This document shows positions 3,927-55,642 of a stretch of DNA of 64,000 nucleotides, one piece after another. The notes beneath the pieces are model-generated. The model was not told where the DNA came from. It did no database searches and saw nothing but the letters and a program-made list of their open reading frames with translations. Source of the stretch: a virus; the IMG/VR virus record IMGVR_UViG_3300032180_000001, positions 120,981 through 184,980 of that record; one strand, 5' to 3'. Every line of letters begins with the position of its first letter. Position 1 is the first letter of the stretch. A program made the translations under genes and the position numbers.

Positions 3927-4899
3927 CTAACCAGCATGTTATACAGACGAGTCCATTACCACCGTTCCCGCCTGCACCGCCTGTAACTCCACCGCCTCCG
4001 CCTCCGCCGCCACAGCCGATAGCACCATCGCCACCACGGCCACCGATACCAGCGCTAGCCGATCCGCCACCCGTTCCCCCGAAGAATACCCAGGTTAGAT
4101 TGGTATAACTAGCTCCGGACACTCCGGCACCTCCCCCGCCTGCGACCCCGGTACCCCCAGGAAAATTAGCCGGAAAAAAATTAGGCCCTACACCTGAATA
4201 TGTATTCGAATACGGTGTTATACTACCGCCATTTGTATCGCCATTTGCAGCTGATGCGCCCCCTCCGCCGCTGCCTCCGGTTGTCATTATTCCGCCTGCA
4301 GCAAGAGTCACACCTGTAGCATTTCCTGTTCCATTCCCGCCAGCGGAGGCGGAGGCGATAATGGAACTAGCTGATACCATCCCGACCATACCATAACCAG
4401 CATAAGACTGACTTCCATTTTCACTAGCCCCAGCTGCACCGCCCACACTAGCTGTCCCGGCTGATCCGAAAGCTGCCGACTGGTTTGAATTAGTTACAGC
4501 AAGAGCAGGGGCCTGACCGCCTATATTACTGCCGCGCATGATGTCACCAAATAGTCCTACGGCAGTAACATCGCCCGAAGAGCCGTTTGAACCAGCCGCA
4601 CCGCCCGCACCGCCAGTCCCTGCATAAACATATAGAGAGGCAGGCAAGAGAAATGCCGGGACCAGGTACCGTACAGATGCCCCGGCGCCGCCACCGCCTC
4701 CGCCGCCACGTAGTGTAGAAGTGGCTCCAGAATAGCCTCCTCCGCCACCAGCCCCGGGTCCGATCAGCATCATCCAGACCATGGTAATCCCTTTTGGTTT
4801 TGTCCATATCTGACAGGAGTTTAGACCGATATTGTAAAACACCTGCTGCCGGTCACCTGTATCTGGCCAGCCAAAAAAATCAGGCATGTCAGTAATCAC
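3927..4899 (-). CDS. Glycine-rich putative virion protein (~323 aa, ends VCITCW)
   Basis: GGGGG-rich repeats; natural end TGG T TAG; in the zero frame it reads TTA and fuses to the HNH ORF. Confidence 0.55.
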
Positions 4900-5329
4900 C
4901 GCCGACGACTGATACCCGCACTCCGGCTGCTACAGCAGTTCCTAGCGTACAGTTAATGACATATCCAGCGGGGATGGCAAAATTAAAGGCGATCTCGCTT
5001 GTCTGAAGAGCTGCTGCCGCATTCGCGGTAGATGCAGGAATAGTCAGCTCTGAGATCAAGACGTTGTTCGCTTGCGTCGCGTTAGTAGACCCATTATTAA
5101 GAAAAACACGGAGAACAGTAGTAACATTCGTACCGACCGGACGGCAGACTAGCTTCTGAATGTACGAGCCATTCGCCCCGGCGGTGAAGACCGAAGTTAC
5201 ATAACCTGTACCATCCATCGCTGTGTTAGCAGACAGTATCGGTCCTGCGGTTGCCGCCGCATTGTCGTCGACTGAACCCCAGCTGATATGCGGCGTGAGG
5301 GTAAACAGGGGGGCGGTGTTAGCAGGCAT
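4889..5329 (-). CDS. Hypothetical putative virion protein
   Basis: 146 aa, beta-rich, coupled to the downstream gene. Confidence 0.55.
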   Translation of the reverse strand: MPANTAPLFTLTPHISWGSVDDNAAATAGPILSANTAMDGTGYVTSVFTAGANGSYIQKLVCRPVGTNVTTVLRVFLNNGSTNATQANNVLISELTIPASTANAAAALQTSEIAFNFAIPAGYVINCTLGTAVAAGVRVSVVGGDY

Positions 5330-5337
5330 CTCGGCTC

Positions 5338-5550
5338 CTACTCGTGATCCCGGTCGTCACCCTGGGCGGTAACGCCTGGCTGGCTGCTCGCTGGGTAGAC
5401 GCGGGTTAGCTCGGAGCCGTCCGGGTAGACGCGAGCCGAGTCGGGGTTGCCGTCAGCGGCGAAGTACGAGCCGGTGACCGTCAGGTCGGTGAGGTTCAGG
5501 GCGGCAGCAACCGCAGACGCGAGTCCCGAGGGGAGACTGAGGTTTGCCAT
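5338..5550 (-). CDS. Small protein with RVYP motifs and GDDRDH C-terminus
   Basis: ATG 5550 after RBS GCAGGAG; C-terminus resembles that of 27253..28170. Confidence 0.5.
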   Translation of the reverse strand: MANLSLPSGLASAVAAALNLTDLTVTGSYFAADGNPDSARVYPDGSELTRVYPASSQPGVTAQGDDRDHE

Positions 5551-5680
5551 GTCGTCTCCTGCAGGTCGAGGGAACCTGGCTCCAGGATGGCGCTGGCCGC
5601 AGATGGCACTTCTCGTCCATCGTACCGTCAACCGGCCCGATCGTACCTCCGCGCTCCCGAAGACTTGCCGAGCTGCACCG

Positions 5681-6148
5681 CTATGCCGCCATCTGAATCG
5701 TAAGAATCCCGAGCACATTCCATGAAATGGCGAATGTTCCGGCTACCGTCGAATACCCGGTGCCGCCGAAATAAATGCCGCAGATTTTAGCCTTCGGACT
5801 AAGACCATTAGCATATATATAGCAGCCATAGGCAGGGGCGGTTGTAGTGGTGCTCCCGACGCTAACATTATTCATTGACCACATAAGTGTTTTACTTGGT
5901 GATTGCGTCAGGGTCGGGGCATAGGAACCAGTGCTCAGGTTGATGCCGCCCGTCGGCCAATTCGAACCCGCAGTCACCTCATTCCCATTAGTCCAGGTAG
6001 ACGGATCAGTAGCTGAAATATAGTCAGGTGTCTCCGAGTTTGTAGATAGCGACAAATTATTGTTTGTATCGAGAAGACTCATCGCGATGACTTGCTTAAG
6101 GGTATCTCTAAAAGTGGCGTAAAAGATACCACTCTCCGTCCAGGCCAT
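5681..6148 (-). CDS. Putative virion protein, intein-free paralog of 11987..12937
   Basis: RBS GGAGGG; shared motifs GNEVT..NW..GG, YGC.IY, YFGG...VAGTF. Confidence 0.6.
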   Translation of the reverse strand: MAWTESGIFYATFRDTLKQVIAMSLLDTNNNLSLSTNSETPDYISATDPSTWTNGNEVTAGSNWPTGGINLSTGSYAPTLTQSPSKTLMWSMNNVSVGSTTTTAPAYGCYIYANGLSPKAKICGIYFGGTGYSTVAGTFAISWNVLGILTIQMAA

Positions 6149-6149
6149 A

Positions 6150-6646: not shown

Positions 6647-6669
6647 CGCGATGTCCTCTCCAACTGCTC

Positions 6670-13459: not shown

Positions 13460-13789
13460 TCAGTCCCCGAGCCTGAGCTGCGCGAGCCCGGCGTTAGCGG
13501 CTAGATCGGTACCCTCGTCGCGAGTTGTCCTGATCGACATGTACGGCCGGCCATCGTCTCCGGTCGCCTGGATCTCACCGTTCAGGTAATCCTCGCGCTC
13601 GACAGCCTCCACCTTGCAGGCAGTCCCGGCGCGAACGAGAGGCGCGGTGAGGTAATGCAGCCGCGGGCAGGTATGGAACCGTGAAGAGCCGGGGGGTAGC
13701 GCGGGGACTCGCTCTGACAGCCCGCAGTTGGGACATGACCAGTCTTCAAACGGCGTTCGCAGCAGCGGTACGTTCCGCGGCACGTCCAT
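13460..13789 (-). CDS. Hypothetical protein with CPNC...FHTC motif
   Basis: ATG 13789 after GGGAG; Cys/His motif. Confidence 0.5.
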   Translation of the reverse strand: MDVPRNVPLLRTPFEDWSCPNCGLSERVPALPPGSSRFHTCPRLHYLTAPLVRAGTACKVEAVEREDYLNGEIQATGDDGRPYMSIRTTRDEGTDLAANAGLAQLRLGD

Positions 13790-13884
13790 GCGGCAGCTCC
13801 CGGGTTCGGAATCCGCCGGCTCCTGGGTGGCCGCAGCGCTACTGACCTTCAGCATAGCAGCCTGGACAACACTCGTTCCGCTGG

Positions 13885-16254
13885 CTACTGGAAATAGGTA
13901 ATCACGAGCGCGTACCCGGCGGCGCCCTGAGCGCCCGCACCTGAAGACGTGCCGCCTGAGCATGCTCCTCCGCCTCCGCCACCGCCGCCAGTGTTCGCCT
14001 GAGGAGATGCCCCCGCCTGTGCCGCTCCGGTGATCGCCGCCGCCCCGCCACCGCCACCAGGCCCAGTTCCGCCTTGAAAGGCCGGAGCCGTACCGCTAGT
14101 CGGAGATGCCCCGCCGACAATACCGCCAGCAGAAGTATTGGCACTTGATCCCAGGAATGTATAATAACCGACTCCGCCATTGGCAGCCGTCGGCCCGGAA
14201 GCGATCACCCCGCCACCTCCGCCGCCGCCGCTTGTCGCACCTTGGACTGCGGCATCACTGGTTCCGCCGGTTCCTGTCGTTCCGGTACCACCCGCTCCAC
14301 CGGTTGTCAGCCCGGATCCGCCTCCACCGCCGGCTGCCGTTCCCGACGCACCCGGCCCAGCCGCGCCTGCTGCTCCACCGTGCGCCCACAGATAAGAACC
14401 GAAAAACGTTCCTGATCCGGCAACGCCTGGGTTACCCGCGCCAGCCCCCGTAACGGCCGCTCCGCCCGCTCCCCCGGTGCCGAGGGTGACCGCGACCGTG
14501 CCGGATAGCTGTGACGCCTGAAACATGGCCGTCGAATAGCCGCCTCCTCCGCCGCCACTACCGCCGACTGCGGCTCCGCTTGCCTCGAATGCCCCGGATC
14601 CGCCGCCACCGCCGTCCGCGACGAGGGCGACATAAACAGTCTGCGCTCCAGCTGGCTTCGTCCATGTTGCCGTGGAGGTATAAAAATTGACTTGCGGAGT
14701 GACAATTGAAGATCCGGGGGTGTCTAGATTAGTCCACGAGCCACCCGAACCGGTACCGGTAAAAATAGATTCGAGGTCTCCGGAAGCGACAGCGGTATAA
14801 ACCCCGGTAGCAGGAGCGTAGTTAGCGTAGTTCCGGACCGAAATGCTCACCGGGCTGGCGCCGGCTGGAACGATGCAGGTAGCTTTCGGGCCATTCAGCG
14901 TCACCAGGTCCAGGTTGACTCTGCACGGCCGTGTGCTCGCCGATCCGCTGATCGATATAATCGGAGCCTGATAAGCACCTGAGGAATACATCAGAGCTGA
15001 TATACTATTAAAACTCCACTGACCGCCGATGACAGTAATAAGCGGATTACCAGCCTGCGGATAAACAGTTGTAAAGGCAATATCCTCAAATGATACCGGA
15101 GTCGGACTGAAACTATTGGTACCAAGGATAAATTGTGAACTGTTCTGCGACTGAATATTTTTAATTGTCGTCTGACCAGCACTATTATCAGTGAAATAAA
15201 AATCACACCAGTTCTGCGCTGGCTGGGCTCCGAGCAGAGCGAAACTAGAGCAATTTATCTTGTATCCGTAGTAGCACAGGTTAGCATCAACTCCGAGACC
15301 CCGGTGATCATAGTTGTTCCCGTTGCCGCCGCAGCCGAAGGCAAAAGCCACCAACCAGTTCCCGGTGCTGCTCCAGGATCCACCTGCCTGTCCTCCGGTT
15401 ACGATAACATTTTCTAGCGTCGTGCCGTCGACCTGTCGGGCACCGTTTCCTTCTAGCGAGAGCCCAGTAATGAATTTAAGAGTACGAATACGAATATCCC
15501 GGAAGCAGTTTCCCGAAGTCGACCGAGCTGCGACATTAGCCGATACAACAGCGACCGTTACGGTAACGGTTCCGGTGGCCGTGCAGTTCTGCGACAGCGT
15601 CCACCCGACACCGGAAGTGGAGGTGAGAACAGTCGTCCCGCCGGGGATGCCGGTACCCGTTACCGTCGCGCCGACGTCGTAGGCCTGAGCCAGAGTGTTA
15701 GTTACGACCGCCGACCCGGAAATAGTTCCGCAGCCCGCGTCGGTCCGGCTGGCCGTCACCCAGTCGAGCCGGATGCCGTCAATGACCTGCTCGGTTCCGT
15801 CACCCGTGACCTCGAAGCCCTCGAACACCCCGTCCGCAGATCCGTTAACGAACAGCACCGCCTGGGTGAACCCGGTTCCGGACGCGCGGATGTTGGTCAT
15901 CGCCGGGCCGTCGCCGATCAGCTTGAAGTTCTGCACCGACTGGATAATCAGGTCCGACGTTACTTTGTACGTACCGCGTGGGAGGTAGACCGGTGCGAGC
16001 GCTCCCCGGGTATGTGTGGCTGGAGCAGCATTGCCGGTGGCGGCGTTAATGGCCGCCTGAATCGCAGCGGTGTCATCGGTGGTGCCGTTGCCGGTCGCCC
16101 CGTACTGCGGGTCCTGCACGTTGATGACACCGCTGACACCGTTGACGCTGGCCAGGGATCCGTCAGCCTTGTGCGCGACCCGCAGCCAGGTATTGAGCTG
16201 CGTGCCCCATGAGTTCTGGCTAGCGCCCTGGCTGGGAAGGCTCGGCGTTGTCAT
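13885..16254 (-). CDS. Pectate-lyase-3-like beta-helix protein with Gly-rich C-terminus
   Basis: VINVQDPQYGATGNGTTDDTAAIQAAINAA...VYLPRGTYKV motif; poly-Gly tail. Confidence 0.65.
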   Translation of the reverse strand: MTTPSLPSQGASQNSWGTQLNTWLRVAHKADGSLASVNGVSGVINVQDPQYGATGNGTTDDTAAIQAAINAATGNAAPATHTRGALAPVYLPRGTYKVTSDLIIQSVQNFKLIGDGPAMTNIRASGTGFTQAVLFVNGSADGVFEGFEVTGDGTEQVIDGIRLDWVTASRTDAGCGTISGSAVVTNTLAQAYDVGATVTGTGIPGGTTVLTSTSGVGWTLSQNCTATGTVTVTVAVVSANVAARSTSGNCFRDIRIRTLKFITGLSLEGNGARQVDGTTLENVIVTGGQAGGSWSSTGNWLVAFAFGCGGNGNNYDHRGLGVDANLCYYGYKINCSSFALLGAQPAQNWCDFYFTDNSAGQTTIKNIQSQNSSQFILGTNSFSPTPVSFEDIAFTTVYPQAGNPLITVIGGQWSFNSISALMYSSGAYQAPIISISGSASTRPCRVNLDLVTLNGPKATCIVPAGASPVSISVRNYANYAPATGVYTAVASGDLESIFTGTGSGGSWTNLDTPGSSIVTPQVNFYTSTATWTKPAGAQTVYVALVADGGGGGSGAFEASGAAVGGSGGGGGGYSTAMFQASQLSGTVAVTLGTGGAGGAAVTGAGAGNPGVAGSGTFFGSYLWAHGGAAGAAGPGASGTAAGGGGGSGLTTGGAGGTGTTGTGGTSDAAVQGATSGGGGGGGVIASGPTAANGGVGYYTFLGSSANTSAGGIVGGASPTSGTAPAFQGGTGPGGGGGAAAITGAAQAGASPQANTGGGGGGGGACSGGTSSGAGAQGAAGYALVITYFQ

Positions 16255-33775: not shown

Positions 33776-34468
33776 ATGACCAGTGGACGTAACCCTGACT
33801 ACATCCCGGGCAAGACCTGCGAGAACTGCGGGAAGCCTATTCCGTGGCGTCCCGGGATAGAGGTGCGAGCGAGAGCCCGCTGGTGCAGCAAAGACTGCTT
33901 CCAAACCGCTGGACGCGATGCTGCACCTAAGCCGTGTGAAAACTGCGGCAAGCCAATCCCGTGGCGGGAAGGCCGCGCAGCCCGTACTAAGGCTCGCTTC
34001 TGCTGCGACGCCTGTAAATTCGCTTGGCAGAAGCTCCACCCGCCGAATCCACGACAACCTCGGGAAACGAAGCCATGCGACACATGCGGCAAGCCTGTCG
34101 AGTACCTTCCATCCCAGAAGCTGGCAAGTAAGTACCCGAACGGAAACATCTACTGCTCCCGAGAATGCTTCGGTATCGGGCATTCTAAAACCATGACGGG
34201 ACGCCGTCCCAGCGGAGGCATCTATACCTCGCCCAGCACCTTCCGACTGATGATCCGACGCGAATTCTTCGACCGCTGCGCCATCTGCGGCTGGGACACA
34301 ACCCCGTGCGACGTCGCGCACATCATCGATCGGAAAGACGGCGGACCCGACTCGCTGGAGAACGTTGTGATGCTGTGCCCGAACCACCACCGGGCCTTCG
34401 ACATGAAGTTGATCCCCGTCGAGACAATCCGGCTGGCACGAGAAACGATCCTGCGTAATCATCAGTGA
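33776..34468 (+). CDS. HNH endonuclease with treble-clef zinc repeats, antisense to the head operon
   Basis: Three CxxC...CxxxC repeats; CAICGW...DVAHII...NVVMLCPNHH. Confidence 0.82.
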   Translation: MTSGRNPDYIPGKTCENCGKPIPWRPGIEVRARARWCSKDCFQTAGRDAAPKPCENCGKPIPWREGRAARTKARFCCDACKFAWQKLHPPNPRQPRETKPCDTCGKPVEYLPSQKLASKYPNGNIYCSRECFGIGHSKTMTGRRPSGGIYTSPSTFRLMIRREFFDRCAICGWDTTPCDVAHIIDRKDGGPDSLENVVMLCPNHHRAFDMKLIPVETIRLARETILRNHQ

Positions 34469-37153
34469 TCACCGTGCCCGTTTCCGTTACCATTCATTGA
34501 TCCGGCCAGGACTGACCGCTCCGCATCGGACGGTATCCACGCCCCAACGTATTCAGGCTCGACCTTTTCCGCACGAGCCCGTCCTTCACGCGCCAGCGCC
34601 CGCAGGACAGCTATCAGACCATCCGTGGACAGATCTCCGGCATCTCGCGTCTTCGTCAGAACGGCTGCAAGCAATGATGCGGGAGATTTCGCAGACGGCT
34701 CAATATTAGGCTGCGCGATACCTTCCTGCTGAAGCTTTTCCAGCCGGTCTGCGGCTAGGTCCATCTCCAGCGTAATCTGGGGAAGCATGGAGTTCGGAAT
34801 GCCGCGAATAGAGTGAGCCATCGCGACCATGACATCCGCCGGGATAACCTCATTGCCTGCCCCGCCTGGAAGTGGCCCCATGTCTTCCTTCTCGCGAATC
34901 TCGTCGATGGTCAGGATCCCCGTGTCCCGCTGAGACTCGTAGATCTCCGTCCGGGTCTTCAGATCAGTCTTCAGCAGCGCGTCAGAATTAAAGCGAACGT
35001 ACCGGTTAGCGGGAATAATATCGAAGAACGCGGTCTCTAGCCTAACCATCCACGGACGCAAGGATTCAATGACCTGAAGGGTACTCATCTCTACCGTGTT
35101 GCCAGTAAAATAGCAGGTGCCGTTCCGACGCGCATACCAAGACTTACTTGGCGTACTTACACACCATACAAGATCTGTAACCTCGTCGGTCACGTACTCC
35201 GGATGACCCTTCGGCTTACGCCACGGTGAAATCTGAATCGGCATAACATACATACCATGCTTATTCGGTCCCCGTACCACGCCCGAGCGTCCAGACAGTG
35301 CGCAGGCAACCTGGAACGCATCAAGCCGCGCTTTATCCTTCTGTGCCATCGTCCAACTTGCGGCATGCCGAGAGCCATCAGCATCGAGGGACGTTTGAAT
35401 GAAAAGCTCAAGCTGTGCCCTGGTAAGCTGGCTCAGAAATTCCGTAGAAACTACCTTAGCAGGAGCATGCTTTGTCAGCACCTGCCCAGCTTGCGCGTTC
35501 AACCTGAAATGCACGTGCCCCCGCTCGTCCAGGTCTTCCTGCCATGCCGGACCGCCATCGTGCTGTCCCGTAAGACCATTTCGCAGATTTCGCACCACAC
35601 TCGCGTGTGAACCGCACTTCCGAGCTATTCCCCGATTCGTCCCACTCGGATCACGAAGTAGCTCAACCCGGATAAGATCCCGCTTCTTCCGCCCACGCCC
35701 GCCTAGCAACGAAACGCCACGCTCTACAGCACTTGGCCCAAACATCTCCGTCAGCGCTGCCCTAATCCGCATTACGTTCAGCGGGTTCACTCGCTCCGAC
35801 TGAGCAATTGTCACGGCACCTGATTCCCCGATCCATCCCTCTGTCCAGAACCAAGCCACCAACTCAGCTAGTGCGTCCGACCACTTCGGCTCTACCGGAG
35901 TCACAACCGGAGCCGCCGCGCAGACCCGCGAATTAATCGGCATAGTTTCTGTAGTTCGCCACTGGTAACCTTCGTTTCTGCGCCTTTCCCCAGACAACAT
36001 CACAGGCCAACGATGATTTGGCGTGGTTACCGACGAATGTGACAGGTTCTCCAGGCGGATAACCGGATAAGACGCGTCATCAAAAACATGTACCTTTTGA
36101 ACTGGCTGCCATTCAGCCATACCCGTTTCAGTATTCAGTCCAAGACAAGTGTCCCCGGCAAGCACCTGATCGTGCCTCAGCCAACCGCGCAAGGTTAGGA
36201 TTTCCGTCTCAGCATCAGCGCAGTTGTAGGTTAGACTGTCAGCCCTTTTCCCGCCAACGCGATCCGGAGGAAGCCCATAAATGGCAGCAAGCTGGGTAGC
36301 GCTAAACTGCTGACTCTCGATGAATTGAGCTTCAGACGGCGGAACTGTTATCGGCTTGTATTCCCAGTCTCGACCGTAGACGAGTGGCGTATGGTTCCGG
36401 ATCGCATCGACTAGCTGCTCCTTGATCTGGTCAGACGCATCCTTATCCACTTCCAGCTGATTATTCTGAAAGGTGCCTGGTGGAAAACCACCGGAAGCGA
36501 ACCAGTCGTTGCCAAACCGCTGGGCTTCCGTTCCCGACGAGATCGTCAGCATGAAATGCCGTAGCGGAGAAATACCCTCCGTACGGCCGGGGAGCGTAAA
36601 TGCCCGGATATGAAAAAGCTCGTCACGCCAGTTTTCAATCAACCGTCCGTAGACGTACACCCGGGTACGAAGGGGATTCCATGGCTGCTGCGGGTCATCA
36701 ATGACGTTAACCATGTCCGGCGGAATCCAATCGATTCCAGTCGGGTAACTAAAGCCATCGCGACCGGTGACGAAACCCCAGGCGTTTCCGTGCAGGAGCA
36801 GTGATGTCATGCACTGGTACACCCAGTCAAAGGTGTTCGCGCTGACTGATGGCCGATCAAAAATAGACGGTCCCCAGTACCTGGCCGCAACGCCACCGCC
36901 GGGGGCTCGTGTGTAAAGCTTGATTGGCAGGCTGGCGAGAGATTCGGCTAGCAACCGGACGCAGGAATAGAGTGCCGGAAGACCGAGTGCCTGATCCTGG
37001 CCGTAGAACGCCCGGGACGGATGAATCGGCCCACCTTGCGAAAATTTGAAGTAAATAGGGTGAATCCCATGGACGAATTAATCGCCATGGAACTCCGCCG
37101 ATAACGCGCTGCTCAACACTTCTGTCAGCCAAGATGCGATCAAGGAAACCCAT
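34462..37153 (-). CDS. Phage portal protein (HK97-like) with intein; needs a +1 shift near codon 34
   Basis: ATG 37153 (RBS GGAGGTGG); the +1 frame from 37053 gives ALYSCVRLLAESLASLP, LLLHGNAW, GISPL, FIESQQFS..LAAIYGLPP. Confidence 0.85.
35098..36222 (-). mobile_element. Intein with LAGLIDADG-type endonuclease (375 aa) in the portal
   Basis: CADAETEILTLRGW...AWFWTEG...SLDADG...VWCVSTPSKSWYARRNGTCYFTGN followed by Thr(+1). Confidence 0.88.
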
Positions 37154-37179
37154 AACCCCTACCACCTCCCTCCGCCTAC

Positions 37180-37188: not shown

Positions 37189-37194
37189 GGAACT

Positions 37195-38378: not shown

Positions 38379-40123
38379 ACCGGCATCCTAAGGCAGATGT
38401 TCTCCGCTAAGCGCACAGAGCTGAGAAGGTCGTAGCCGCGCCTCTTCTTCCCGAGCGCCCAGCTAGCCAGGGTAACGGCAACGATCGGCGTAATATCAGC
38501 CTCGCTGTCGCGTCGTGACCAGCCGCGCCCGCCATCTCCGATCTGCCGGGTTTCGGCACTGCCGATCGCAGACCACAGCACAGGTGCCTGCTCCCTGCCG
38601 AGATGAATGACCTGGCGATCACGGATGCCGGTGACAATCTGAGCAAATGCAGCAGCCTCATCAGCACTGCCGGCCGCCAGCACTTCAATCCCTGCCTGCT
38701 CTGCCGCGTCAATCAGCCCGGCCGCCGGTCCGTTCTTCGGAATGCAGACAGCAGCAGGATGGTACTCGCGGTTCAGCTCGACAAGCCGGGGGATGACCCA
38801 GTCCGTACCCTCGCGAGAGCAGCCGCGGGGGATCTCCAGCACCGTTCGATACCTCGTCCTCGGTGGTGACAGAGGAAATTTTTCCTCGAGCTTCGGCTCT
38901 GGCCGTTCCCAGGCCGCTCCGATAGTAGTGACAGTCATCTCCGGGTTGACATCAACCGCGAAGGCCAACGGTCGGACCGCACCACCGGGATCTCCCAGGG
39001 CACACTGACTCCAGGCTTCTTCGGAGACGACCGCCCAGGCTTCCTCTTCGGCCGGCCAGTCGCCAACGCTGAGGATCTCACGGTCAAACTGCGCCATGGT
39101 CATCGTCGCGAATTCCTTGGCCGTCTGCTCATAGCTGATCCTGGTACCCAGGGCAGGATTCGCCTTCGCCCAGGATCGCGGGTCATCCCGGTCATCATGT
39201 CGGTCGCAGACGATGTACCGATTGGTCTTCCGGCCAAGCACCTCATCGCGCGGGCAGGTATCGAGGTGCGGGTCGATCGACCACTCGGCACCCATCAGCG
39301 TCTGATCTTGACGCATGATCCGGCGCCGGACGAGGGCAAGCTGAATGCTATCGTGGTAGCCCGCTGAAGCGGTATAAATGACCTGCGGATTAGGAACCGC
39401 GCGCATGGTCGGCAAAGACGCCCCAACTTGCTCATCGGTCAAAAACATTGCCTCGTCATAGACGACCGTATCAGCTGTGAAACTTCGCCCGGAACCGCGA
39501 GAGCGAGCCAGAAAACGAAGTCGGCTACCAACGCTACGCCGAATCATCTTGCCGCCTTGTCCAAAGATAAGCGTCGGCGCTGGCTTCAACTCGATTGACT
39601 CTTCACCATGACTGGTAATAACCCGGTGAACGCGCCTTCTCAGCTCATCATAAGCGGAGATAGTATCCTGAACCCGGCGGAAATGCTCAGCAGCAGCCTT
39701 GAACTCATGCGCGGTATGAATAATCATCCGCTCGCCGAATACAAAAAGCCCGCCTATCTCCCGAACTTCCAAATTTTGGTTCTTACCGTTCTGCCTGGCA
39801 ACAATTGCAGCGTTCTCAAAAGCAGCCCACCTTCCATCAGGCTTAGTCCCGCAGCATTCGCCGAGCCACCATTCCTGCCATTCATCAAGGCTGTACCCGA
39901 CGGTAGGAGCCCAGTCCAGTAGCTCTTCCGATGCGTGGTTCCCGCAACCTGACTGGTACCCGTTCTGCTTACCGCGCCAGCACGCCCCGCACTTCGGGTC
40001 GATCTCCCGATGCCTGGGGGGAGCGGTCCAGAACCGCGGCATCTGGCTGCCGACTAGCTGACCGTGCAGGATCGACCCGTCGGGCAGGTAAACGTCAGGC
40101 ACCGCGACGAGGTGAACGCTCAT
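38375..40123 (-). CDS. terL: Terminase large subunit
   Basis: Walker A ARQNGKN, Walker B VVYDEA, PQVIYTAS, KANPALG, AFAVDV; possible natural end at CGC T TAG (38407). Confidence 0.92.
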   Translation of the reverse strand: MSVHLVAVPDVYLPDGSILHGQLVGSQMPRFWTAPPRHREIDPKCGACWRGKQNGYQSGCGNHASEELLDWAPTVGYSLDEWQEWWLGECCGTKPDGRWAAFENAAIVARQNGKNQNLEVREIGGLFVFGERMIIHTAHEFKAAAEHFRRVQDTISAYDELRRRVHRVITSHGEESIELKPAPTLIFGQGGKMIRRSVGSRLRFLARSRGSGRSFTADTVVYDEAMFLTDEQVGASLPTMRAVPNPQVIYTASAGYHDSIQLALVRRRIMRQDQTLMGAEWSIDPHLDTCPRDEVLGRKTNRYIVCDRHDDRDDPRSWAKANPALGTRISYEQTAKEFATMTMAQFDREILSVGDWPAEEEAWAVVSEEAWSQCALGDPGGAVRPLAFAVDVNPEMTVTTIGAAWERPEPKLEEKFPLSPPRTRYRTVLEIPRGCSREGTDWVIPRLVELNREYHPAAVCIPKNGPAAGLIDAAEQAGIEVLAAGSADEAAAFAQIVTGIRDRQVIHLGREQAPVLWSAIGSAETRQIGDGGRGWSRRDSEADITPIVAVTLASWALGKKRRGYDLLSSVRLAENICLRMPV

Positions 40124-40373
40124 GACTCAGCCCAGGCACTCCTTGTCCGAAGGTTGCCTGGCTCCGGTTCCGAGAGGAACGGCCGCAGGATAACGCTAGT
40201 TTAAACCCCATCAAGGCACGAGCCTCATCGATGGTCATCATCCCCCGGTTAATCTTAACCATAATCCGTGCCAGTGCTCGGCCGAATTCCTGGTCCGGCT
40301 CGGGCAGCTCGCCGCGTCGCACGGTCCCATCGGGCAGAAAGACATCCGGTACGACAACAAGATGCGCAGCCAT
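40095..40373 (-). CDS. TerL-leader cassette 1 (ends at 40127 if +1 shifted at TTA 40193)
   Basis: Starts MAAHLVVVPDVFLPDGTVRRGE. Confidence 0.55.
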   Translation of the reverse strand: MAAHLVVVPDVFLPDGTVRRGELPEPDQEFGRALARIMVKINRGMMTIDEARALMGFKLALSCGRSSRNRSQATFGQGVPGLSHERSPRRGA

Positions 40374-40376
40374 GGC

Positions 40377-40831: not shown

Positions 40832-41058
40832 GCCAGATCACTCATCTGGGTCTTGAGTTTTTCCATGATCGCAGCCTGGCTTTTCAGTGTCTGTTGCAGC
40901 TTGTCCGCAACCTCCGTTACCGCCGCAATAGCCATGATGATCTGACACATCTGAGGTACCCGATGCTTTCGCTGCTCCAGCCAGTCGGCCAGATCACCAC
41001 GCCGCGCTGTGCCATCGGGCAGGAAAACATCGGGTACGGCAACGAGGCGAACGGTCAT
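40828..41058 (-). CDS. TerL-leader cassette 4
   Basis: Starts MTVRLVAVPDVFLPDGTARRGD; ATGA coupling. Confidence 0.55.
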   Translation of the reverse strand: MTVRLVAVPDVFLPDGTARRGDLADWLEQRKHRVPQMCQIIMAIAAVTEVADKLQQTLKSQAAIMEKLKTQMSDLA

Positions 41059-41240
41059 AACTCTCTTCGCCCCTTGCTGATCCGAAATGTCGGCTCAAAG
41101 CCAGCCTCAACGAGCAAATTCTTGAAGACAGCCAGTCTCCCGAGCCGATGTTTCCACTTGTAAGGCAACGCCTGCTCCCCATGCAAAACGGTACCGTCGG
41201 GCAGGAAAACATCGGGTACGACAACGAGGTGAACGGTCAC
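41055..41240 (-). CDS. TerL-leader cassette 5
   Basis: Starts MTVHLVVVPDVFLPDGTVLHGE; GTGA overlap with the terS stop. Confidence 0.55.
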   Translation of the reverse strand: MTVHLVVVPDVFLPDGTVLHGEQALPYKWKHRLGRLAVFKNLLVEAGFEPTFRISKGRREL

Positions 41241-42702: not shown

Positions 42703-43165
42703 ATGATGCGAGACGTCCAGATGGAACTAGGGCGTGCTATCAGATTTATTGACGGCGCTCCCGACATTACCGGACTGCCTTGCGATAAAATAGAATCGGA
42801 AGAAGCGGGGGAGTACATGCGCCGCTATCATCTAGAATTTTCTCGGGACCGCTGCATCCGCTTCCATCACATACTAACCTCTGACCCCGAGATTGACCTG
42901 CATGATCATCCTTGGGATTTTGCATCAGTCATGCTAGCTGGTTCCTACGTCGAAATTACCCCTGACGGGCCGGTAACGTACGAGGCTCCGTGCGTCATCA
43001 CCCGGACAGCCAGGCAGCTGCACCGCCTAGTGCTAGCCGAACCTGTGTGGACCTACGTCATCTGCGGCAAGGTTCAACGCAAATGGGGTTTTGCTACTGA
43101 CCATGGGTGGGTGCCCTGGGATCAGCACGGGAATACCCGCGACACCAGCTCCTGCGGAAACTTAA
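42703..43165 (+). CDS. Cupin-like protein (HDHPW motif); fused to the next ORF via TTA in the zero frame
   Basis: LHDHPWDF...GSYVE...HRLVL...RKWGF; +1-frame TAA at 43163..43165. Confidence 0.55.
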
Positions 43166-43353
43166 TGCACCTTACCGTACGAGAAAAAGCCCTCATCGCT
43201 CATTCTCTCCGGGCGACCGCCGCAAACCTTGACCAAGAAGCCAGATCACATAGATTCAGGCACGGTCGGTGGGCAGAACACCGTACGGCTCTTCACGAAG
43301 AAGCACACGAACTGCGCGAGCTAGCCGAAAGATTCGAAAACGGAAAACCGTAA
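43165..43353 (+). CDS. Small helical protein (TAATG-coupled; in frame with the cupin as sequenced)
   Basis: MHLTVREKALIAHSLR..., 62 aa. Confidence 0.45.
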   Translation: MHLTVREKALIAHSLRATAANLDQEARSHRFRHGRWAEHRTALHEEAHELRELAERFENGKP

Positions 43354-53267: not shown

Positions 53268-53726
53268 TCACGCATCAGGAAACCATCCGTTCCCAGAAGA
53301 GTAACCGCCGTCACCGTCATCGAAGTTCCGGCAGACCTCCGCGATGAGCAGTTGAGCGATGACGTAAGCTGCTGCCTCGGTGAGATCGACGAGCTGCTCG
53401 CTGACAACTAGGCACCGCCACTCTAACCGTTCGATCCGGTGCGTGGTGTCTGTCAGTCCTTTTGCCAGTCCGGCCCGGTAGTTCTGTTCCAACGCGAGCC
53501 AAAACCGGGCCGGGATGAAAGTCCCCATAGCGAGACAGTCCGCGTGCGACTTAAGCAGGGGCTTCCGATCCAGAACTTCACGGATCAGCGTGACCGCGTA
53601 CTGCTTGTTCTCCCTGCCCACGCAGGCAACGGCGAGCACATCCACGGACAAGCCGTTCTCCTGCATCCAGTCGTCCAGCGTCGCGGCCGGGGCGATCGTC
53701 CAATCCGGATCGAAGGGGATTGTCAT
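53268..53726 (-). CDS. HigA-like XRE/HTH protein
   Basis: APAATLDDWM...A..LAMGTFIPARFWLALEQNYR. Confidence 0.55.
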   Translation of the reverse strand: MTIPFDPDWTIAPAATLDDWMQENGLSVDVLAVACVGRENKQYAVTLIREVLDRKPLLKSHADCLAMGTFIPARFWLALEQNYRAGLAKGLTDTTHRIERLEWRCLVVSEQLVDLTEAAAYVIAQLLIAEVCRNFDDGDGGYSSGNGWFPDA

Positions 53727-54211
53727 AACAGCGCCGCCGACTCGATCATCCCTTGGTACGGAGGCGTGACGCAGTGCCACTCACGGAGCTTCCCGACCCG
53801 TTTTGCAAATCGCAATGTTTGCCAGGTCCCGCTCCGCAGCGACTGCGGATCCTCCTCGGAATAGGCAGGAAAGCCGAACACCATCGTGCTCTCGTCGACG
53901 ATACGCCGATTCCGGTCGGCATACGTGGTGCCCGGCGGCATCTCAATCACCGTGATCCTACGCAGCCCTGTCGGAACAGCTCCCCACCAGGGATCCACCC
54001 GACTACGGTCTGCCGGAACAACGATCACATGCTCAGCAGTATCCCGATGATAACAAAGCCACTTGCCGATAAAGGCGTCCCCGCCGATGCAGGCACCCGT
54101 AATGTAACGATCGGCATCCGGAACCCGGGCAGTCAGCACGTTAGTCACCACGCCGTTCCGCGCCTCGGCGGACAGCTCCCGTGAAGCACTAAAGCCAACG
54201 CTGGTGATCAC
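53723..54211 (-). CDS. SLOG-superfamily (DprA/YspA-like) protein
   Basis: TGACIGGDAF, YADRNRRIVD, RSGTWQTLRFA. Confidence 0.6.
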   Translation of the reverse strand: MITSVGFSASRELSAEARNGVVTNVLTARVPDADRYITGACIGGDAFIGKWLCYHRDTAEHVIVVPADRSRVDPWWGAVPTGLRRITVIEMPPGTTYADRNRRIVDESTMVFGFPAYSEEDPQSLRSGTWQTLRFAKRVGKLREWHCVTPPYQGMIESAALL

Positions 54212-54450
54212 AGATACGGCCCATCTTGGGGAGGCTCGCCGTTGAGAATCCTGTCGACTTCTGCCTCGACCAGTGCGGACGTCCAGTTGTAGTGATCATC
54301 GATCACGTAGGTACGAAGGATCTGCCGTTCGATCCGCTCATCCGACCAGTCCGGGTTCCGCTCGCGCAGCCACCGAGCACAGTCCCTGTCCGCAGCGGGA
54401 TTCCGGCCCTCGGCATTCCTACGCTTATCAGCGCCTGCTCTTGCTCTCAT
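54208..54450 (-). CDS. Hypothetical protein
   Basis: 80 aa, coupled. Confidence 0.4.
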   Translation of the reverse strand: MRARAGADKRRNAEGRNPAADRDCARWLRERNPDWSDERIERQILRTYVIDDHYNWTSALVEAEVDRILNGEPPQDGPYL

Positions 54451-54800
54451 TATTCTTCTTCCTCTTTTGACAGGATAACTTCGGTAAACCCGCCCAGCCG
54501 GGCCATGACCCGAATAAAGTTGTTTTTATACCCGTAAGTGTCATAAAACCAGCGACACAAAGCCCCGCCAACCTCCCGGTGAACGCCATAGGAAAGCGTT
54601 TCGTGGCAGATGATCCCCTGACTGCCTTCCTGCATCCCGTCTCGCACCATCTGCCGGAGCCGTCCTGACTGCAAATACATCGAATTCCCTGGTCGGCCGA
54701 TGCACGTTGGGCATTGCTCGGACAGTACCCGCGGCCTGGATTCCCCGCGAACGAAGCATGATTCCCTGCTTGGCGGTTCGTCTCCGTCGTCATAGCTCAT
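54450..54800 (-). CDS. Cys-containing hypothetical protein
   Basis: CPTC...ICH...LC pattern. Confidence 0.5.
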   Translation of the reverse strand: MSYDDGDEPPSRESCFVRGESRPRVLSEQCPTCIGRPGNSMYLQSGRLRQMVRDGMQEGSQGIICHETLSYGVHREVGGALCRWFYDTYGYKNNFIRVMARLGGFTEVILSKEEEE

Positions 54801-55144
54801 CTATATTACCCCCGTAATTCTCAGAACAATCACAATTATCGCAAGGATGCAGCCGATAGCCGCTTCCAGGTCGTCACGCCAGACCGGCTCGGTGACCGTC
54901 CGCTCACACTCGGAGCACCAGAACTGGTAGCGTGCGAGCCAGAGGCGTTTCCATGACCGGTACGGAACGATCATAAGCACATGGCTCTCACAGTACTGCT
55001 TCGATCTCATCCCGCCGATCCTTCCCCGCAAGGCGCTCTGGTCATTCTACCCTCTGCGGAGCACTTCAGCTACACATCTGCCCGTTTGACGAACAGCATC
55101 TTACGGTATAGAACAGGCAGACCACCCGCGGCCTGGAGGAGCGC

Positions 55145-55327
55145 ATGTCTGATCTCGCTGTTTCCCTCACTGTCACCGGCCTGCACGGAACGCTGATCCT
55201 GATCGCCGTCATCCTGATCGCGATCGGGGCCATCATCACCGTGTTCGTGAATCCGCGAACCCCCTGGGCGACGTTCGTAGCGCTCGGCCTGTGCCTTGCT
55301 ACCCTGGCGTTGCTGATCACCGGCTAA
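55145..55327 (+). CDS. Small membrane protein
   Basis: 60 aa, two hydrophobic helices, RBS GGAGG. Confidence 0.55.
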   Translation: MSDLAVSLTVTGLHGTLILIAVILIAIGAIITVFVNPRTPWATFVALGLCLATLALLITG

Positions 55328-55642
55328 AACAGAGTACCCATCCGGCCAAAGTTCCCGCGGCGGAAGCGCGCTCAGCAGCACGTGCTCCGGCTCCGCCCTA
55401 GCCGCCTCCCCGGTCGCATCGTCCCGGAACCTGAAACCACCCTCGTTCCGTCGATACCGATAGACAACAGCGCTATACCCGTCGAGAATGTAGAACTCGA
55501 TGCGGTAAATGCACCGCTCGACGGGCTCGGGGATGTTCTGTCTCACCCAGGTAAACACCTCTGGCGAGTTCGATATCCGAAAGACAGCCGGGTCGCCACC
55601 GCTGTTACAATCCCAGACAAGAACAGGCGCGGCCGGAATCAC
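55324..55642 (-). CDS. Hypothetical protein (probable end GTT T TAG at 55324)
   Basis: 105 aa; zero-frame readthrough would span the entire convergent gene. Confidence 0.45.

What the first reader, a model, noticed from the sequence alone, without database searches (positions are those of the whole stretch)
3927..55330. Window-wide pattern: in-frame TTA codons sit where a +1 slip restores the expected stop or frame (candidate UUA-triggered recoding)
Seen: the in-frame TTA codons I found by eye in credible genes are at 3928 (TGG TTA G), 37079 and 37052 (portal), 38408 (terL, CGC TTA G), 40191 (cassette 1, GCG TTA T), 43162 (AAC TTA ATG) and 55325 (GTT TTA G). At six of these seven sites, skipping one T gives a sensible result: a TAG right after a natural-looking C-terminus (VCITCW, YDLLSSVR, PDGYSV); a canonical TAATG stop-start overlap; the restored portal frame; or a frame ending TGA 3 nt before the terL ATG. 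I noticed no in-frame TTA in the long structural genes or the AT-rich enzyme genes, and no comparable frameshifts elsewhere. Random sequencing error should not concentrate at gene ends. Established: UUA is the rare, bldA-tRNA-dependent codon in Streptomyces, and UUA-linked bypassing has been proposed for the terminase of phage phiHau3. Inference: hungry-UUA +1 recoding is used at several loci here, so protein ends, fusions and portal output could track host tRNA-Leu(UAA) availability.
Basis: partly seen in the sequence, partly recalled or inferred. Interest (0 to 1): 0.9.

Follow-up and report, generated by a model that had tools for sequence, protein, structure and literature searches.

The report
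Ribosome hops at rare TTA codons
In this 185-kb phage of an actinobacterium the leucine codon TTA is never used as an ordinary codon: it occurs only where ribosomes must hop over a few extra bases to make essential proteins (portal, a glycosyltransferase) or right where a gene should end. This greatly widens a decoding trick so far proposed for three Streptomyces phage terminase genes.

Summary
All seven TTA codons are in frame where stated, and I found three more (41060, 53426, 53728).

- **TTA is not an ordinary codon here.** In-frame TTA is about 10-fold depleted, although the trinucleotide is common out of frame. None of 33 in-frame TTAs in the genome is followed by continuing coding sequence. 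For CTA the figure is 53%. Pooled over five related genomes it is 3/103 for TTA against 55% for CTA (p=6e-29).
- **Internal sites are short hops, not +1 slips.** The design is take-off codon, TTA, 0-8 further bases, then a matching landing codon.
  - Ten of 19 related portal genes carry such inserts (4-11 nt) at four positions.
  - Three related terL genes and this genome's glycosyltransferase carry them too.
  - The hop product matches uninterrupted homologues exactly.
- **It is the phiHau3 design.** phiHau3 terminase, read directly, has the same architecture.
- **terL ends at a TTA.** TTA-G sits exactly where about 30 relatives have the terL stop, in two lineages independently.
- **No tRNA for TTA.** Relatives carry 31-39 tRNA genes but never tRNA-Leu(UAA).
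- **Host.** It is actinobacterial (WhiB, Lsr2); the genus is unknown.

Assembly error is unlikely, though raw reads could not be checked. This scan has reported the same trick in other phage genomes. Verdict: a new variant of a known, rare kind of recoding.

The parts
34462..37153 (-). Portal gene. ATG at 37153 and 33 codons in one frame; the rest (Phage_portal domain) lies in the +1 frame.
   Evidence: Pfam Phage_portal 1.9e-48 and phrog_12 on 34462-36954. Three-frame view. The N-terminal peptide MGFLDRI..GGVPWR is conserved in relatives and continuous with the portal in uninterrupted relatives such as L005.
37073..37084 (-). Portal hop site A. Take-off CGA (37084-37082), gap TTAATT (37081-37076), landing CGT (37075-37073). 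The 9-nt total keeps the frame, so both hopping and read-through give an in-frame product.
   Evidence: Coordinates checked. Alignment A1 shows the same CGA-TTA(N0-4)-CGN insert in L022, L032, L012, L008 and L009, with totals of 6, 9, 7, 10 and 10 nt. It is absent from 9 other lineages.
37051..37057 (-). Portal hop site B. Take-off TAT (37057-37055), A-site TTA (37054-37052), skipped T (37054), landing TAC (37053-37051), resume TTC (37050). The +4 hop is needed to enter the portal frame.
   Evidence: The hop product DSPY|FKFSQGGPIHP has the same length as uninterrupted relatives (P-[YF]-x-K-F). There is no start codon in the portal frame before the TTG inside the conserved helix.
38408..38410 (-). 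TTA immediately after terL codon 571 (..YDLLSSVR), followed by G. It sits at the position of the stop codon in relatives. The zero frame adds 10 codons up to TGA 38377-38375.
   Evidence: In one search, about 30 distinct relatives end terL here with TAG, TAA or TGA (for example L016 ..YDLLASVR*). In one search, L012 has GGA TTA G at the same place.
38411..40123 (-). Large terminase (terL) coding sequence up to Arg571.
   Evidence: phrog_9 terminase large subunit 7e-60. 52 related loci at 30-74% identity.
40184..40196 (-). Candidate hop in the small gene upstream of terL (start ATG 40373). Take-off GCG (40196-40194), gap TTATCCT (40193-40187), landing GCG (40186-40184). The new frame ends at TGA 40129-40127, 3 nt before the terL ATG.
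   Evidence: The resulting junction CTGAGTCATG mirrors the preceding paralogue's junction CTGAGCCATG (40382-40371). No homologue of the C-terminus was found, so this remains a candidate only.
3928..3930 (-). TTA after the last codon (TGG) of a glycine-rich tail-fibre-like gene (3931-4899), followed by G. AGGA-N7-ATG (3918) then starts a separate Cys-rich gene of lower GC (3412-3918).
   Evidence: The Pfam Gly_rich_2 profile ends at residue 321 of 323 (weak hit, E 6e-4). Codon usage changes at the TTA. The downstream product has CxxC/HNH-like motifs and weak atlas leads to HNH/NUMOD3 clusters.
43162..43164 (+). TTA between a cysteine-dioxygenase-like gene (42703-43161) and the ATG (43165) of a 62-aa helical ORF. 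A +1 reading gives TAATG.
   Evidence: phrog_4786 5.5e-38. Homologues end 8-35 residues after the GWV(P/H)W motif, which is about where the TTA lies.
55325..55327 (-). TTA after ..PDGYSV of a 105-codon gene (55328-55642), followed by G. The same three bases are the TAA stop of a convergent plus-strand gene for a 60-aa membrane protein (55145-55327).
   Evidence: The zero frame beyond the TTA is the antisense of that membrane-protein gene, which has GGAGGAG 5 nt before its ATG.
41058..41060 (-). Additional in-frame TTA: last sense codon before TGA, with the next gene's ATG overlapping (TTATGA).
   Evidence: The downstream ORF starts MTVRLVAVP.., another copy of the cassette N-terminal motif.
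53726..53728 (-). Additional in-frame TTA: last sense codon before TGA, with the next gene's ATG overlapping (TTATGA).
53424..53426 (-). Additional in-frame TTA followed by G (+1 gives TAG). The zero frame shows no coding signal afterwards. The gene end is not verified by homology.

Best explanation
In this phage and its relatives UUA is a codon that the translation system reads very poorly or not at all. The host is an actinobacterium. The phage carries no tRNA, and related phages bring 31-39 tRNAs but never tRNA-Leu(UAA). A ribosome that arrives with UUA in its A site therefore waits.

**Inside genes.** The peptidyl-tRNA in the P site lets go of its codon (take-off). It re-pairs with the next matching codon 4 to 11 nt downstream (landing), and decoding resumes after that codon. 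This is short-range translational bypassing, the design proposed for the phiHau3 terminase. Here it is needed for the portal protein (TAT-T-TAC at 37057-37051) and for a glycosyltransferase just outside the window (TAC-T-TAT). It is optional at the in-frame portal site CGA-TTAATT-CGT. It is a candidate at GCG-TTATCCT-GCG upstream of terL.

**At gene ends.** The same stall is harmless. A UAG or UAA lies one base ahead (TTA-G or TTA-A at 3928, 38408, 43162, 55325 and 53426), or an in-frame stop follows at once (TTA-TGA at 41060 and 53728).

**What is shown and what is inferred.**
- Shown by sequence comparison: the anatomy of the sites, the match between take-off and landing codons, the exact restoration of homologous protein sequence, the exclusion of TTA from ordinary coding positions, and the missing tRNA.
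- Inferred: that the hop happens in the cell, how efficient it is, how termination happens at TTA-R, and whether the sites tune portal and terminase output to tRNA-Leu(UAA) supply.
For: 1. **Portal alignment A1.** Ten of 19 distinct lineages carry inserts. Every insert begins with TTA directly after a sense codon and ends in a synonymous or two-base-matching codon.

| Take-off-gap-landing | Lineage(s) |
|---|---|
| CGA-TTA(N0-4)-CGN | window, L022, L032, L012, L008, L009 |
| TCT-TTAG-TCC | L003 |
| TCT-TTAGGTAA-TCC | L010 |
| TAT-T-TAC | window |
| TGG-TT-AGG | L009, L016 |
| TGG-TTACC-CGG | L036 |

Total lengths are 4, 5, 6, 7, 8, 9, 10 and 11 nt, so the inserts evolve as untranslated sequence.

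2. **Other genes with hops.**
- terL of L036 and L041: GAA-TTACT-GAG/GAA gives HTAHE|FK, as in four uninterrupted genomes.
- terL of L032: AAA-TT-AAA gives QNGK|NQ, as in the window.
- Glycosyltransferase of this genome: TAC-T-TAT gives TESPY|QD. All four relatives have a single Tyr there in one contiguous ORF.

3. **Chance match is unlikely.** A random triplet matches a take-off codon by these criteria with probability 0.07-0.16, and all 16 events match.

4. **Unbiased screen.** Every frame break inside a conserved gene has TTA at the junction.

5. **TTA is absent from ordinary coding positions.** 0/33 continue here and 3/103 continue across five genomes, against 55% for CTA (p=6e-29). Observed 12 against expected 106 in frame, with 370 and 164 out of frame.

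6. **tRNA arrays.** Eight arrays in relatives hold about 250 tRNA genes, including Leu CAA, GAG, CAG and UAG and nearly all other U34 tRNAs. None is Leu(UAA). This genome has none at 99% estimated completeness.

7. **terL end.** TTA lies at the exact stop position in two independent lineages.

8. **Rapid turnover.** Insert states differ between near-identical relatives (L022, L023, L036), so they arise and vanish quickly and did so several times.

9. **phiHau3 terminase read directly.** GGC-TTACTCC-GGT and TCT-TTAACGG-TCC. The junction peptide was found by mass spectrometry in E. coli (PMC10732093).

10. **Actinobacterial host.** WhiB and two Lsr2 genes. The nearest isolated-phage terL genes are from Rhodococcus, Arthrobacter and Mycobacterium phages.
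Against: - There is no experimental or read-level evidence for this genome.
- The two frame-changing sites specific to this genome (portal site B, glycosyltransferase) have no independent replicate assembly.
- The host, and therefore its tRNA-Leu(UAA) status, is unknown.
- For TAT-T-TAC and TAC-T-TAT, a +1 shift that decodes the Tyr codon differs from the hop by only one residue. It is rejected only by comparison with homologues.
- The TGG to AGG/CGG landings pair at two of three positions only. A -1 shift would also restore the frame there, with two extra residues.
- The gene-end class is less secure.
  - Only terL is anchored by homologues.
  - Across all 33 in-frame TTAs, the next base is not enriched for purine (G 10, A 6, T 9, C 8).
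  - Several gene-end TTAs are followed by T, where +1 gives Tyr rather than a stop. Examples are TTATCC at 40191, genome 14106, and L005 12273.
- RNA folding around the sites is mostly unremarkable.
Confidence: 0.8

Rival explanations
1. Plain +1 frameshifting at a hungry UUA. The ribosome shifts one base, so the A-site codon becomes UAN. This is Tyr when N is a pyrimidine and a stop when N is a purine.
For: It fits every TTA-G/TTA-A gene end in the window (3928, 38408, 43162, 55325, 53426), genome 24419 (GGC TTA G ATG) and L012 terL. It also restores the frame at 37052, 40191 and the glycosyltransferase site, and in L012's portal (CGA T TAT CGC).
Against: It cannot repair inserts of 5, 8 or 11 nt (L009, L016, L036, L010, and terL of L032, L036, L041). 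It would terminate the portal in L003, L008, L009, L010 and L016, where the +1 codon is TAG or TAA. It adds a Tyr that no homologue has at SPY|FKF and TESPY|QD. It does not explain why every insert ends in a codon matching the take-off codon.
Confidence: 0.12
2. UUA acts as a true termination signal in this system, through a release factor or a rescue factor. Genes can then end on TTA alone, and internal TTAs are hopped over as the UAG of T4 gene 60 is.
For: TTA never behaves as an internal sense codon. It sits at the terL stop position twice. TTATG junctions analogous to TAATG recur (G001 37455, G002 71317, G004 90347, L003, L023, L025, L029). Some gene-end TTAs have no nearby stop in the 0 or +1 frame (L005 12273, genome 14106).
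Against: No bacterial code with UUA as a stop is known; that statement rests on my own knowledge. As the codon before an overlapping ATG, TTA (6 cases) is no commoner than other NNA codons (TCA 28, GCA 23). All seven best-supported gene ends have a purine next, so a canonical stop is one base away. This is what a shift model predicts and a stop model does not require.
Confidence: 0.1
3. The hops occur but have no regulatory role. The inserts are neutral scars, for example left by homing-endonuclease genes or small duplications, and survive only because a UUA-led insert with a matching landing codon is bypassed well enough.
For: Insert states turn over quickly between near-identical relatives, and many lineages have none. 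Site 3928 abuts an HNH/NUMOD-like gene. Earlier notes of this scan on other genomes link such inserts to HNH genes (not tested here). An intein sits in terL of L038 and L040 next to the L032 hop site, which shows that these genes are targets of selfish elements.
Against: Independent inserts cluster within 10 codons of the portal N-terminus in 10 of 19 lineages and recur in terL. That looks selected, or at least strongly site-biased. Portal and terminase are low-copy packaging proteins, as in phiHau3.
Confidence: 0.3
4. Assembly or sequencing indel errors, or a degraded (pseudogenised) phage genome.
For: Single-base differences decide the frame at 37054 and at the glycosyltransferase site. Reads could not be inspected.
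Against: The same class of interruption occurs in more than 10 independent metagenome assemblies, always with TTA and a matching landing codon. No frame break without TTA was found in conserved genes. Random indels would not create the rarest codon in frame each time. The genome is estimated 99% complete, with intact long structural genes.
Confidence: 0.03

Closest known systems
UUA-mediated translational bypassing in the large terminase of Streptomyces phage phiHau3 and two Streptomyces prophages (Smith et al. 2013, J Bacteriol; Antonov et al. 2023, RNA Biol, PMC10732093)
   Same: The anatomy is identical: a sense take-off codon, an in-frame UUA in the A site, a short untranslated gap, and a synonymous landing codon. 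I read phiHau3 directly and found GGC-TTACTCC-GGT and TCT-TTAACGG-TCC. The second uses the same Ser pair as L003 and L010 here. Both systems are actinophages, both affect packaging genes, and in both the restored protein matches uninterrupted homologues.
   Different: The genes differ (portal, glycosyltransferase, a terL-upstream ORF, and other positions in terL). Gaps here are 1-8 nt (shift 4-11 nt) against 4 or 7 nt there (shift 7 or 10 nt). The lineage is an unrelated, large (140-190 kb), uncultured clade. Only 3 of 100 terminase genes carry such a site in that study, against 10 of 19 portal lineages here. The genome-wide exclusion of TTA, the tRNA arrays lacking only Leu(UAA), and the TTA-purine gene ends have not been described, as far as the papers I read show.
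Phage T4 gene 60 bypass
   Same: Peptidyl-tRNA take-off and landing on matching codons (GGA to GGA), with a non-decodable codon (UAG) in the A site.
   Different: There the gap is 50 nt and the bypass depends on a nascent-peptide signal and a take-off stem-loop. Here the gaps are 1-8 nt, no conserved structure was found, and the trigger is a sense codon without a tRNA.
Hungry-codon and stop-codon +1 frameshifting (prfB CUU UGA C, yeast Ty1/Ty3, Euplotes AAA-UAA)
   Same: A slow or empty A site drives a change of frame. The TTA-G and TTA-A gene ends could work this way.
   Different: The internal sites here need shifts of +4 to +11 with re-pairing, not +1. No slippery P-site codon or nearby Shine-Dalgarno element is conserved.
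Mycobacteriophage Bxb1 primase gp50/gp51 overlap with a rare UUA (PMC12646305)
   Same: An actinophage gene is split over two frames with a rare UUA at the overlap, and a bypass has been suggested.
   Different: The mechanism there is undefined and no matched take-off and landing codons are reported. I read it only as a literature mention.
Byp elements of Magnusiomyces capitatus mitochondria
   Same: Many bypass inserts are scattered through essential genes of one genome, and they turn over quickly.
   Different: Those are 27-55 nt mobile GC clusters in a mitochondrial system, and the trigger is not a single dedicated codon.

Membership tests
UUA-mediated translational bypass (phiHau3 type) | In-frame UUA immediately 3' of the last correctly decoded (take-off) codon | tested here: met
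   All 16 homology-anchored events: 12 in the portal, 3 in terL, 1 in the glycosyltransferase.
UUA-mediated translational bypass (phiHau3 type) | Short block that is untranslated and would otherwise break or lengthen the protein | tested here: met
   Insert totals are 4-11 nt, including lengths not divisible by 3. Spacer length varies among relatives at the same site.
UUA-mediated translational bypass (phiHau3 type) | Landing codon cognate or near-cognate with the take-off codon | tested here: met
   13 of 16 landing codons are synonymous and 3 of 16 match at the last two bases (TGG to AGG or CGG). The chance of a match per site is 0.07-0.16.
UUA-mediated translational bypass (phiHau3 type) | Bypass product collinear with uninterrupted homologues | tested here: met
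   Portal P-[YF]-x-K-F, TESPY|QD, HTAHE|FK, QNGK|NQ.
UUA-mediated translational bypass (phiHau3 type) | Host in which tRNA-Leu(UAA) is scarce or conditionally active | tested here: inconclusive
   Actinobacterial hallmarks are present (WhiB, Lsr2). No phage tRNA-Leu(UAA) occurs in about 250 tRNA genes of relatives. The host itself is unidentified.
UUA-mediated translational bypass (phiHau3 type) | Junction peptide or full-length product demonstrated | not testable with these tools
   Needs mass spectrometry or reporter assays.
Programmed +1 ribosomal frameshift | A one-base forward shift is enough to give the functional product | tested here: not met
   It fails for inserts of 5, 8 and 11 nt and where the +1 codon is a stop. 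It gives an extra Tyr at the window's portal site and the glycosyltransferase site. It remains possible for the TTA-purine gene ends.
T4 gene 60-type long bypass | Coding gap of about 50 nt with a take-off stem-loop and a nascent-peptide signal | tested here: not met
   Gaps are 1-8 nt. Folds give z -0.2 to -1.5 at the hop sites; only the 40191 region reaches z -3.1.
Codon reassignment (UUA = stop, as in NCBI table 23) | Genes regularly end on TTA with no canonical stop nearby | tested here: inconclusive
   A few candidates exist (L005 12273, genome 14106). The best-supported ends all have UAG or UAA in +1, or a stop within 0-10 codons.

The most novel reading that the evidence does not exclude
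In a whole clade of large actinophages UUA has stopped being a sense codon and serves as a dedicated 'hop-or-stop' signal. The phages' near-complete tRNA sets deliberately omit tRNA-Leu(UAA). Essential packaging genes (portal, terminase) are repeatedly and independently fitted with UUA hops that gate virion assembly on the host's UUA-decoding state. Writing a gene end as UUA-purine is a further, so far undescribed, way of ending (or conditionally extending or fusing) proteins.
Probability: 0.35. Interest if true: 0.85.

Novelty: new variant of a known kind. Interest (0 to 1): 0.7.

Why it matters
**State of the field.** Until now UUA-triggered bypassing rested on four sites in three terminase genes. 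Its authors describe the hypothesis as 'mostly languishing unknown' (PMC10732093).

**What this clade adds.** It supplies at least 16 natural variants in three genes.
- Gaps range from 1 to 8 nt, and six different amino acids serve as the take-off codon.
- Near-identical phages occur with and without the insert.
- This is a ready-made comparative data set for the rules of short hops: which tRNAs can take off, how far they scan, and how good the landing pairing must be.

**What it shows.** A virus can keep one sense codon entirely out of normal use and omit exactly that tRNA from a near-complete tRNA set.

**Practical consequences.**
- Gene callers split or truncate portal, terminase and other genes in such phages.
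- They also fuse neighbouring genes across TTA, such as 3412-4899, 42703-43353 and 55070-55642 here.
- Annotation pipelines for actinophages should treat in-frame TTA as a flag.

**If the sites are regulatory.** They would link phage assembly to the host's growth phase through a single tRNA.

Tried and rejected
**Searches that gave nothing.**
- Homologues for the 3412-4899 ORF: none in viral contigs and none in five large relatives.
- Homologues for the C-terminus of the 40191 gene: none. Only the shared N-terminal LVAVPDVFLPDG motif hits, mostly terL N-termini.
- Prophage relatives that could name the host: only a 40%-identical terL in a Streptomyces sp. contig and a 30% hit in a Chloroflexota MAG.

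**Candidate sites rejected.**
- G001 44187, 58136 and 10418, and G004 17596 and 184933: the upstream 'protein' is Arg-rich off-frame junk and no homologue spans the junction.
- Genome 110698 and 34227: the upstream ORFs are antisense-like.
- Genome 12194: better read as a gene end overlapping the start of a DNA methylase.
- Genome 14106 (Clp_N protein, then a VVPW-tag ORF in +1): left open.

**Tests that were not informative.**
- The C-terminal VVPWxP family does not define a stop position, because 1-8 residues follow the tag. TTA-TAG at genome 15723 is therefore just a last codon.
- The permissive 'matching landing codon' scan gives similar raw counts for control codons. It is uninformative without homology anchoring.
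- As the codon before an overlapping ATG, TTA is not commoner than other NNA codons.
- RNA structure: only the CCATGG..CCATGG palindrome around portal site A (not conserved in L008) and a structured stretch at 40130-40250.
- Five of the 17 TTA 'codons' of my crude gene set lie in the non-coding Y-RNA-like array upstream of Ro60. They are not codons.

Full report
**What the window is.** The window is the last 64 kb of a single 184,980-bp contig with 59% GC. IMG/VR classes it as a virus record, estimated 99% complete.
- It carries a portal gene (Pfam Phage_portal, 1.9e-48) and a large terminase (phrog_9, 7e-60) on the minus strand.
- It has one WhiB gene and two Lsr2 genes. These families matched only Corynebacterium among the control genomes.
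- Its terL is most similar, at 30-35% identity, to terL of Rhodococcus, Arthrobacter and Mycobacterium phages.

The host is therefore an actinobacterium. Its genus is not known. The only genome hit for terL is a 40%-identical copy in a Streptomyces sp. contig. ARAGORN finds no tRNA gene in the genome.

**The observation.** Six are on the minus strand, and each is in frame with a credible ORF. The stated +1 outcomes are correct at sequence level.

In-frame TTA is far rarer than chance:
- A crude gene set has 17 TTA in 47,114 codons, against 288 CTA and 222 ATA. Five of those 17 lie in a non-coding RNA array.
- In long ORFs, 12 are observed against 106 expected from position-specific base frequencies. 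TTA occurs 370 and 164 times in the other two frames.
- The sharpest test asks how many in-frame TTAs, preceded by 60 or more open codons with coding signal, are followed by 60 or more codons of coding sequence in the same frame. The answer is 0 of 33. For CTA it is 118 of 222 (p=2e-10).

I found three further in-frame TTAs in credible genes of the window. Sites 41060 and 53728 are both TTA-TGA with the next gene's ATG overlapping. Site 53426 is TTA-G.

**Relatives show that the interruptions are real and are hops.** A terL search in IMG/VR returned 52 related loci at 30-74% identity.

In uninterrupted relatives such as L005, the portal begins MGLLERIQADR..GVPWRPWDNPFIKFNLGGPVHPSR.. in a single frame.

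In the window, the first 33 codons (ATG at 37153) are in one frame and the rest of the portal is in the +1 frame. The portal frame has no start codon before a TTG inside the conserved helix.

Ten of 19 distinct lineages carry inserts in this 10-codon stretch (alignment A1):

| Take-off-gap-landing | Lineage(s) |
|---|---|
| CGA-TTAATT-CGT | window (site A) |
| TAT-T-TAC | window (site B) |
| CGA-TTA-CGC | L022 |
| CGA-TTATCT-CGC | L032 |
| CGA-TTAT-CGC | L012 |
| CGA-TTAAAAT-CGT | L008 |
| CGA-TTAATTT-CGA | L009 |
| TGG-TT-AGG | L009, L016 |
| TGG-TTACC-CGG | L036 |
| TCT-TTAG-TCC | L003 |
| TCT-TTAGGTAA-TCC | L010 |

- Every insert starts with TTA directly after a sense codon.
- Every insert ends with a codon that matches that sense codon.
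- Total lengths are 4, 5, 6, 7, 8, 9, 10 and 11 nt.
- Removing the gap plus the landing codon restores the homologues' residue count exactly.
- A +1 slip cannot be general. It would meet TAA or TAG in L003, L008, L009, L010 and L016. It cannot repair inserts of 5, 8 or 11 nt.

**The same design appears in other genes.**
- terL of L036 and L041: GAA-TTACT-GAG/GAA gives ..MIIHTAHE|FKAAAE.., as in four uninterrupted genomes.
- terL of L032: AAA-TT-AAA gives ..SRQNGK|NQDLEVREL.., as in the window's terL.
- A GT-B glycosyltransferase of this genome, 3.7 kb before the window, is split at TAC-T-TAT.
  - The downstream half is Pfam Glyco_trans_1_2.
  - All four large relatives have one contiguous ORF reading TESPYQD, with a single Tyr.
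  - This favours a +4 hop over a +1 shift, which would give SPYYQD.
- I ran a homology screen of 1,610 ORFs against five genomes and 48 loci. Once query artefacts and intergenic indels were set aside, it found no frame break inside a conserved gene without a TTA at the junction.
- A random triplet matches a take-off codon (first two or last two bases) with probability 0.07-0.16. All 16 events match.

**Evolution.** On a portal tree the insert types are scattered. L022 (CGA-TTA-CGC), L023 (no insert) and L036 (TGG-TTACC-CGG) are near-identical, with terminal branches of about 0.05. Inserts are therefore gained and lost quickly, and arose several times, within the same few codons of the portal.

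**The clade avoids UUA and does not supply its tRNA.** I fetched four large relatives of 159-190 kb and 54-71% GC.
- In-frame TTAs that continue as coding number 0/24, 0/6, 0/13 and 3/27.
- Pooled with this genome that is 3/103, against 705/1285 for CTA (p=6e-29).
- This holds even in the two genomes with 54-55% GC, where CTA, GTA and TTT are common.
- These relatives carry 33-39 tRNA genes each. Four more arrays occur in other loci.
- All arrays include Leu-CAA, Leu-GAG and Leu-CAG, several include Leu-UAG, and nearly every other U34 tRNA is present. Among about 250 tRNA genes none has the anticodon UAA.

**Gene ends.**
- **terL.** The window reads ..YDLLSSVR-TTA-G. About 30 relatives end at exactly this position with TAG, TAA or TGA, for example L016 ..YDLLASVR*. 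L012 independently has ..RSIG-TTA-G where its neighbours have ..SIG*.
- **3928.** The TTA follows the last codon of a glycine-rich tail-fibre-like gene. A weak Gly_rich_2 hit ends at residue 321 of 323. Codon usage changes at that point. A separate Cys-rich gene of lower GC starts 9 nt later behind an AGGA. It has only weak leads to HNH/NUMOD3 endonucleases.
- **55325.** The zero frame after the TTA is the antisense of a convergent gene for a 60-aa membrane protein. That gene's TAA stop is the complement of this TTA.
- **43162.** Homologues of the dioxygenase-like protein end 8-35 residues after the GWVPW motif, which is about where the TTA lies. An ATG follows at once.
- **40191.** The motif is GCG-TTATCCT-GCG. 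The new frame ends at TGA 3 nt before the terL ATG. The junction CTGAGTCATG mirrors CTGAGCCATG between the two preceding paralogous cassettes. No homologue confirms its C-terminus.

The best-supported ends all have a purine after TTA, so UAG or UAA is one base ahead. The others have an in-frame stop within 0-10 codons. Over all 33 in-frame TTAs, many of them low-confidence, the next base is not purine-enriched. Some ends read TTA-T. The termination route is therefore inferred, not shown.

**Comparison with what is known.** Smith et al. (2013) proposed UUA-mediated bypassing for the phiHau3 terminase. Antonov et al. (2023, PMC10732093) supported it.
- They found UUA-led gaps of 10 and 7 nt in 3 of 100 terminase genes.
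- They detected a junction peptide by mass spectrometry in E. coli.
- I read phiHau3 directly and found GGC-TTACTCC-GGT and TCT-TTAACGG-TCC, the same anatomy.
- A 2025 paper mentions a possible UUA bypass in Bxb1 primase.

All sequence-level defining features of the phiHau3 type are met here. The host's tRNA status and the protein product could not be tested.

What is new:
- The genes involved (portal, glycosyltransferase, new terL positions).
- The very short hops (+4, +5).
- The frequency and turnover of the inserts.
- The genome-wide exclusion of TTA.
- tRNA arrays that lack only Leu(UAA).
- The TTA-purine gene ends.

Earlier notes of this scan report the same trick in portal, tape-measure and baseplate genes of other phage genomes. 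They suggest that HNH genes leave the inserts. I did not test that origin. I note only that site 3928 abuts an HNH-like gene, and that an intein occupies terL of L038 and L040 next to the L032 hop site.

**Verdict.**
- UUA-triggered recoding is supported.
- The mechanism at internal sites is a take-off/landing hop rather than a +1 slip.
- The gene-end class is real at terL and plausible elsewhere.
- Regulation by tRNA-Leu(UAA) supply is an attractive inference without direct evidence.
- Assembly error is unlikely, but reads were not available.

Noticed in passing
whole genome G000 versus relatives G001-G004, L011, L029, L032, L033: Relatives carry arrays of 21-39 tRNA genes a few kb upstream of terL. 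This genome, estimated 99% complete, has none. At the corresponding place it has the Ro60 / Y-RNA-like array noted by another reader.
   Followed up: partly
L038:2614-3621 and L040:2910-3917: An in-frame intein of about 336 aa of the LAGLIDADG type (..LLGYWLGDGAS.., ends ..THN|C) is inserted in terL at ..QNGKN|C... This is next to the AAA-TT-AAA hop site of L032.
   Followed up: partly
window 40090-41060, minus strand: At least three small tandem ORFs upstream of terL start with the same motif as terL itself (M..LVAVPDVFLPDGTVRRGELP). Two junctions have the form CTGAG(C/T)CATG, that is a stop, 3 nt, then a start.
   Followed up: partly
window 3412-3918, minus strand: A Cys-rich 168-aa ORF of lower GC with repeated CLPGC-x-CG-x-H motifs and a ..WHYRPLCYSCHGVYDG.. 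stretch. There are only weak leads to HNH/NUMOD3 homing endonucleases. It lies directly after the TTA at 3928.
   Followed up: partly
window 37060-37100, minus strand: The two Pro-Trp codon pairs flanking portal site A are both CCATGG, a palindrome. They can pair to form a hairpin with the UUA in its loop. L009 has the same arrangement, but L008 (CCCTGG) does not.
   Followed up: partly
window 40130-40250, minus strand: This stretch between the 40191 TTA and the terL start folds unusually well (-53.8 kcal/mol, z -3.1). Two hairpins lie just before the terL ATG.
   Followed up: no
window 40187-40193; G000 14100-14106 and 34221-34227; L005:12273; L029:11806; L012:7007: The heptamer TTATCC(T/C/G) recurs after in-frame TTA codons more often than I would expect. 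The reason is unknown.
   Followed up: no
window 37159-37980: The 273-codon minus-strand ORF between terL and the portal translates to a Cys/Arg/Ser-rich sequence that looks non-coding. Yet it is 38-45% similar in several relatives. A gene on the other strand (ORF 37195-37887 +) or an RNA may be the real feature.
   Followed up: no
G000 13779-14802, minus strand (outside the window): A Clp_N-domain protein ends at CAG-TTA-T with no stop for 55 codons. The +1 frame runs straight into a VVPWxP-tag ORF. This may be a conditional fusion or another recoding site.
   Followed up: partly
G000 37858-38055 (+), 63395-63565 (-), 73446-73613 (+) (outside the window): One WhiB-like gene and two Lsr2-like genes, which are hallmarks of phages of actinobacteria.
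   Followed up: yes
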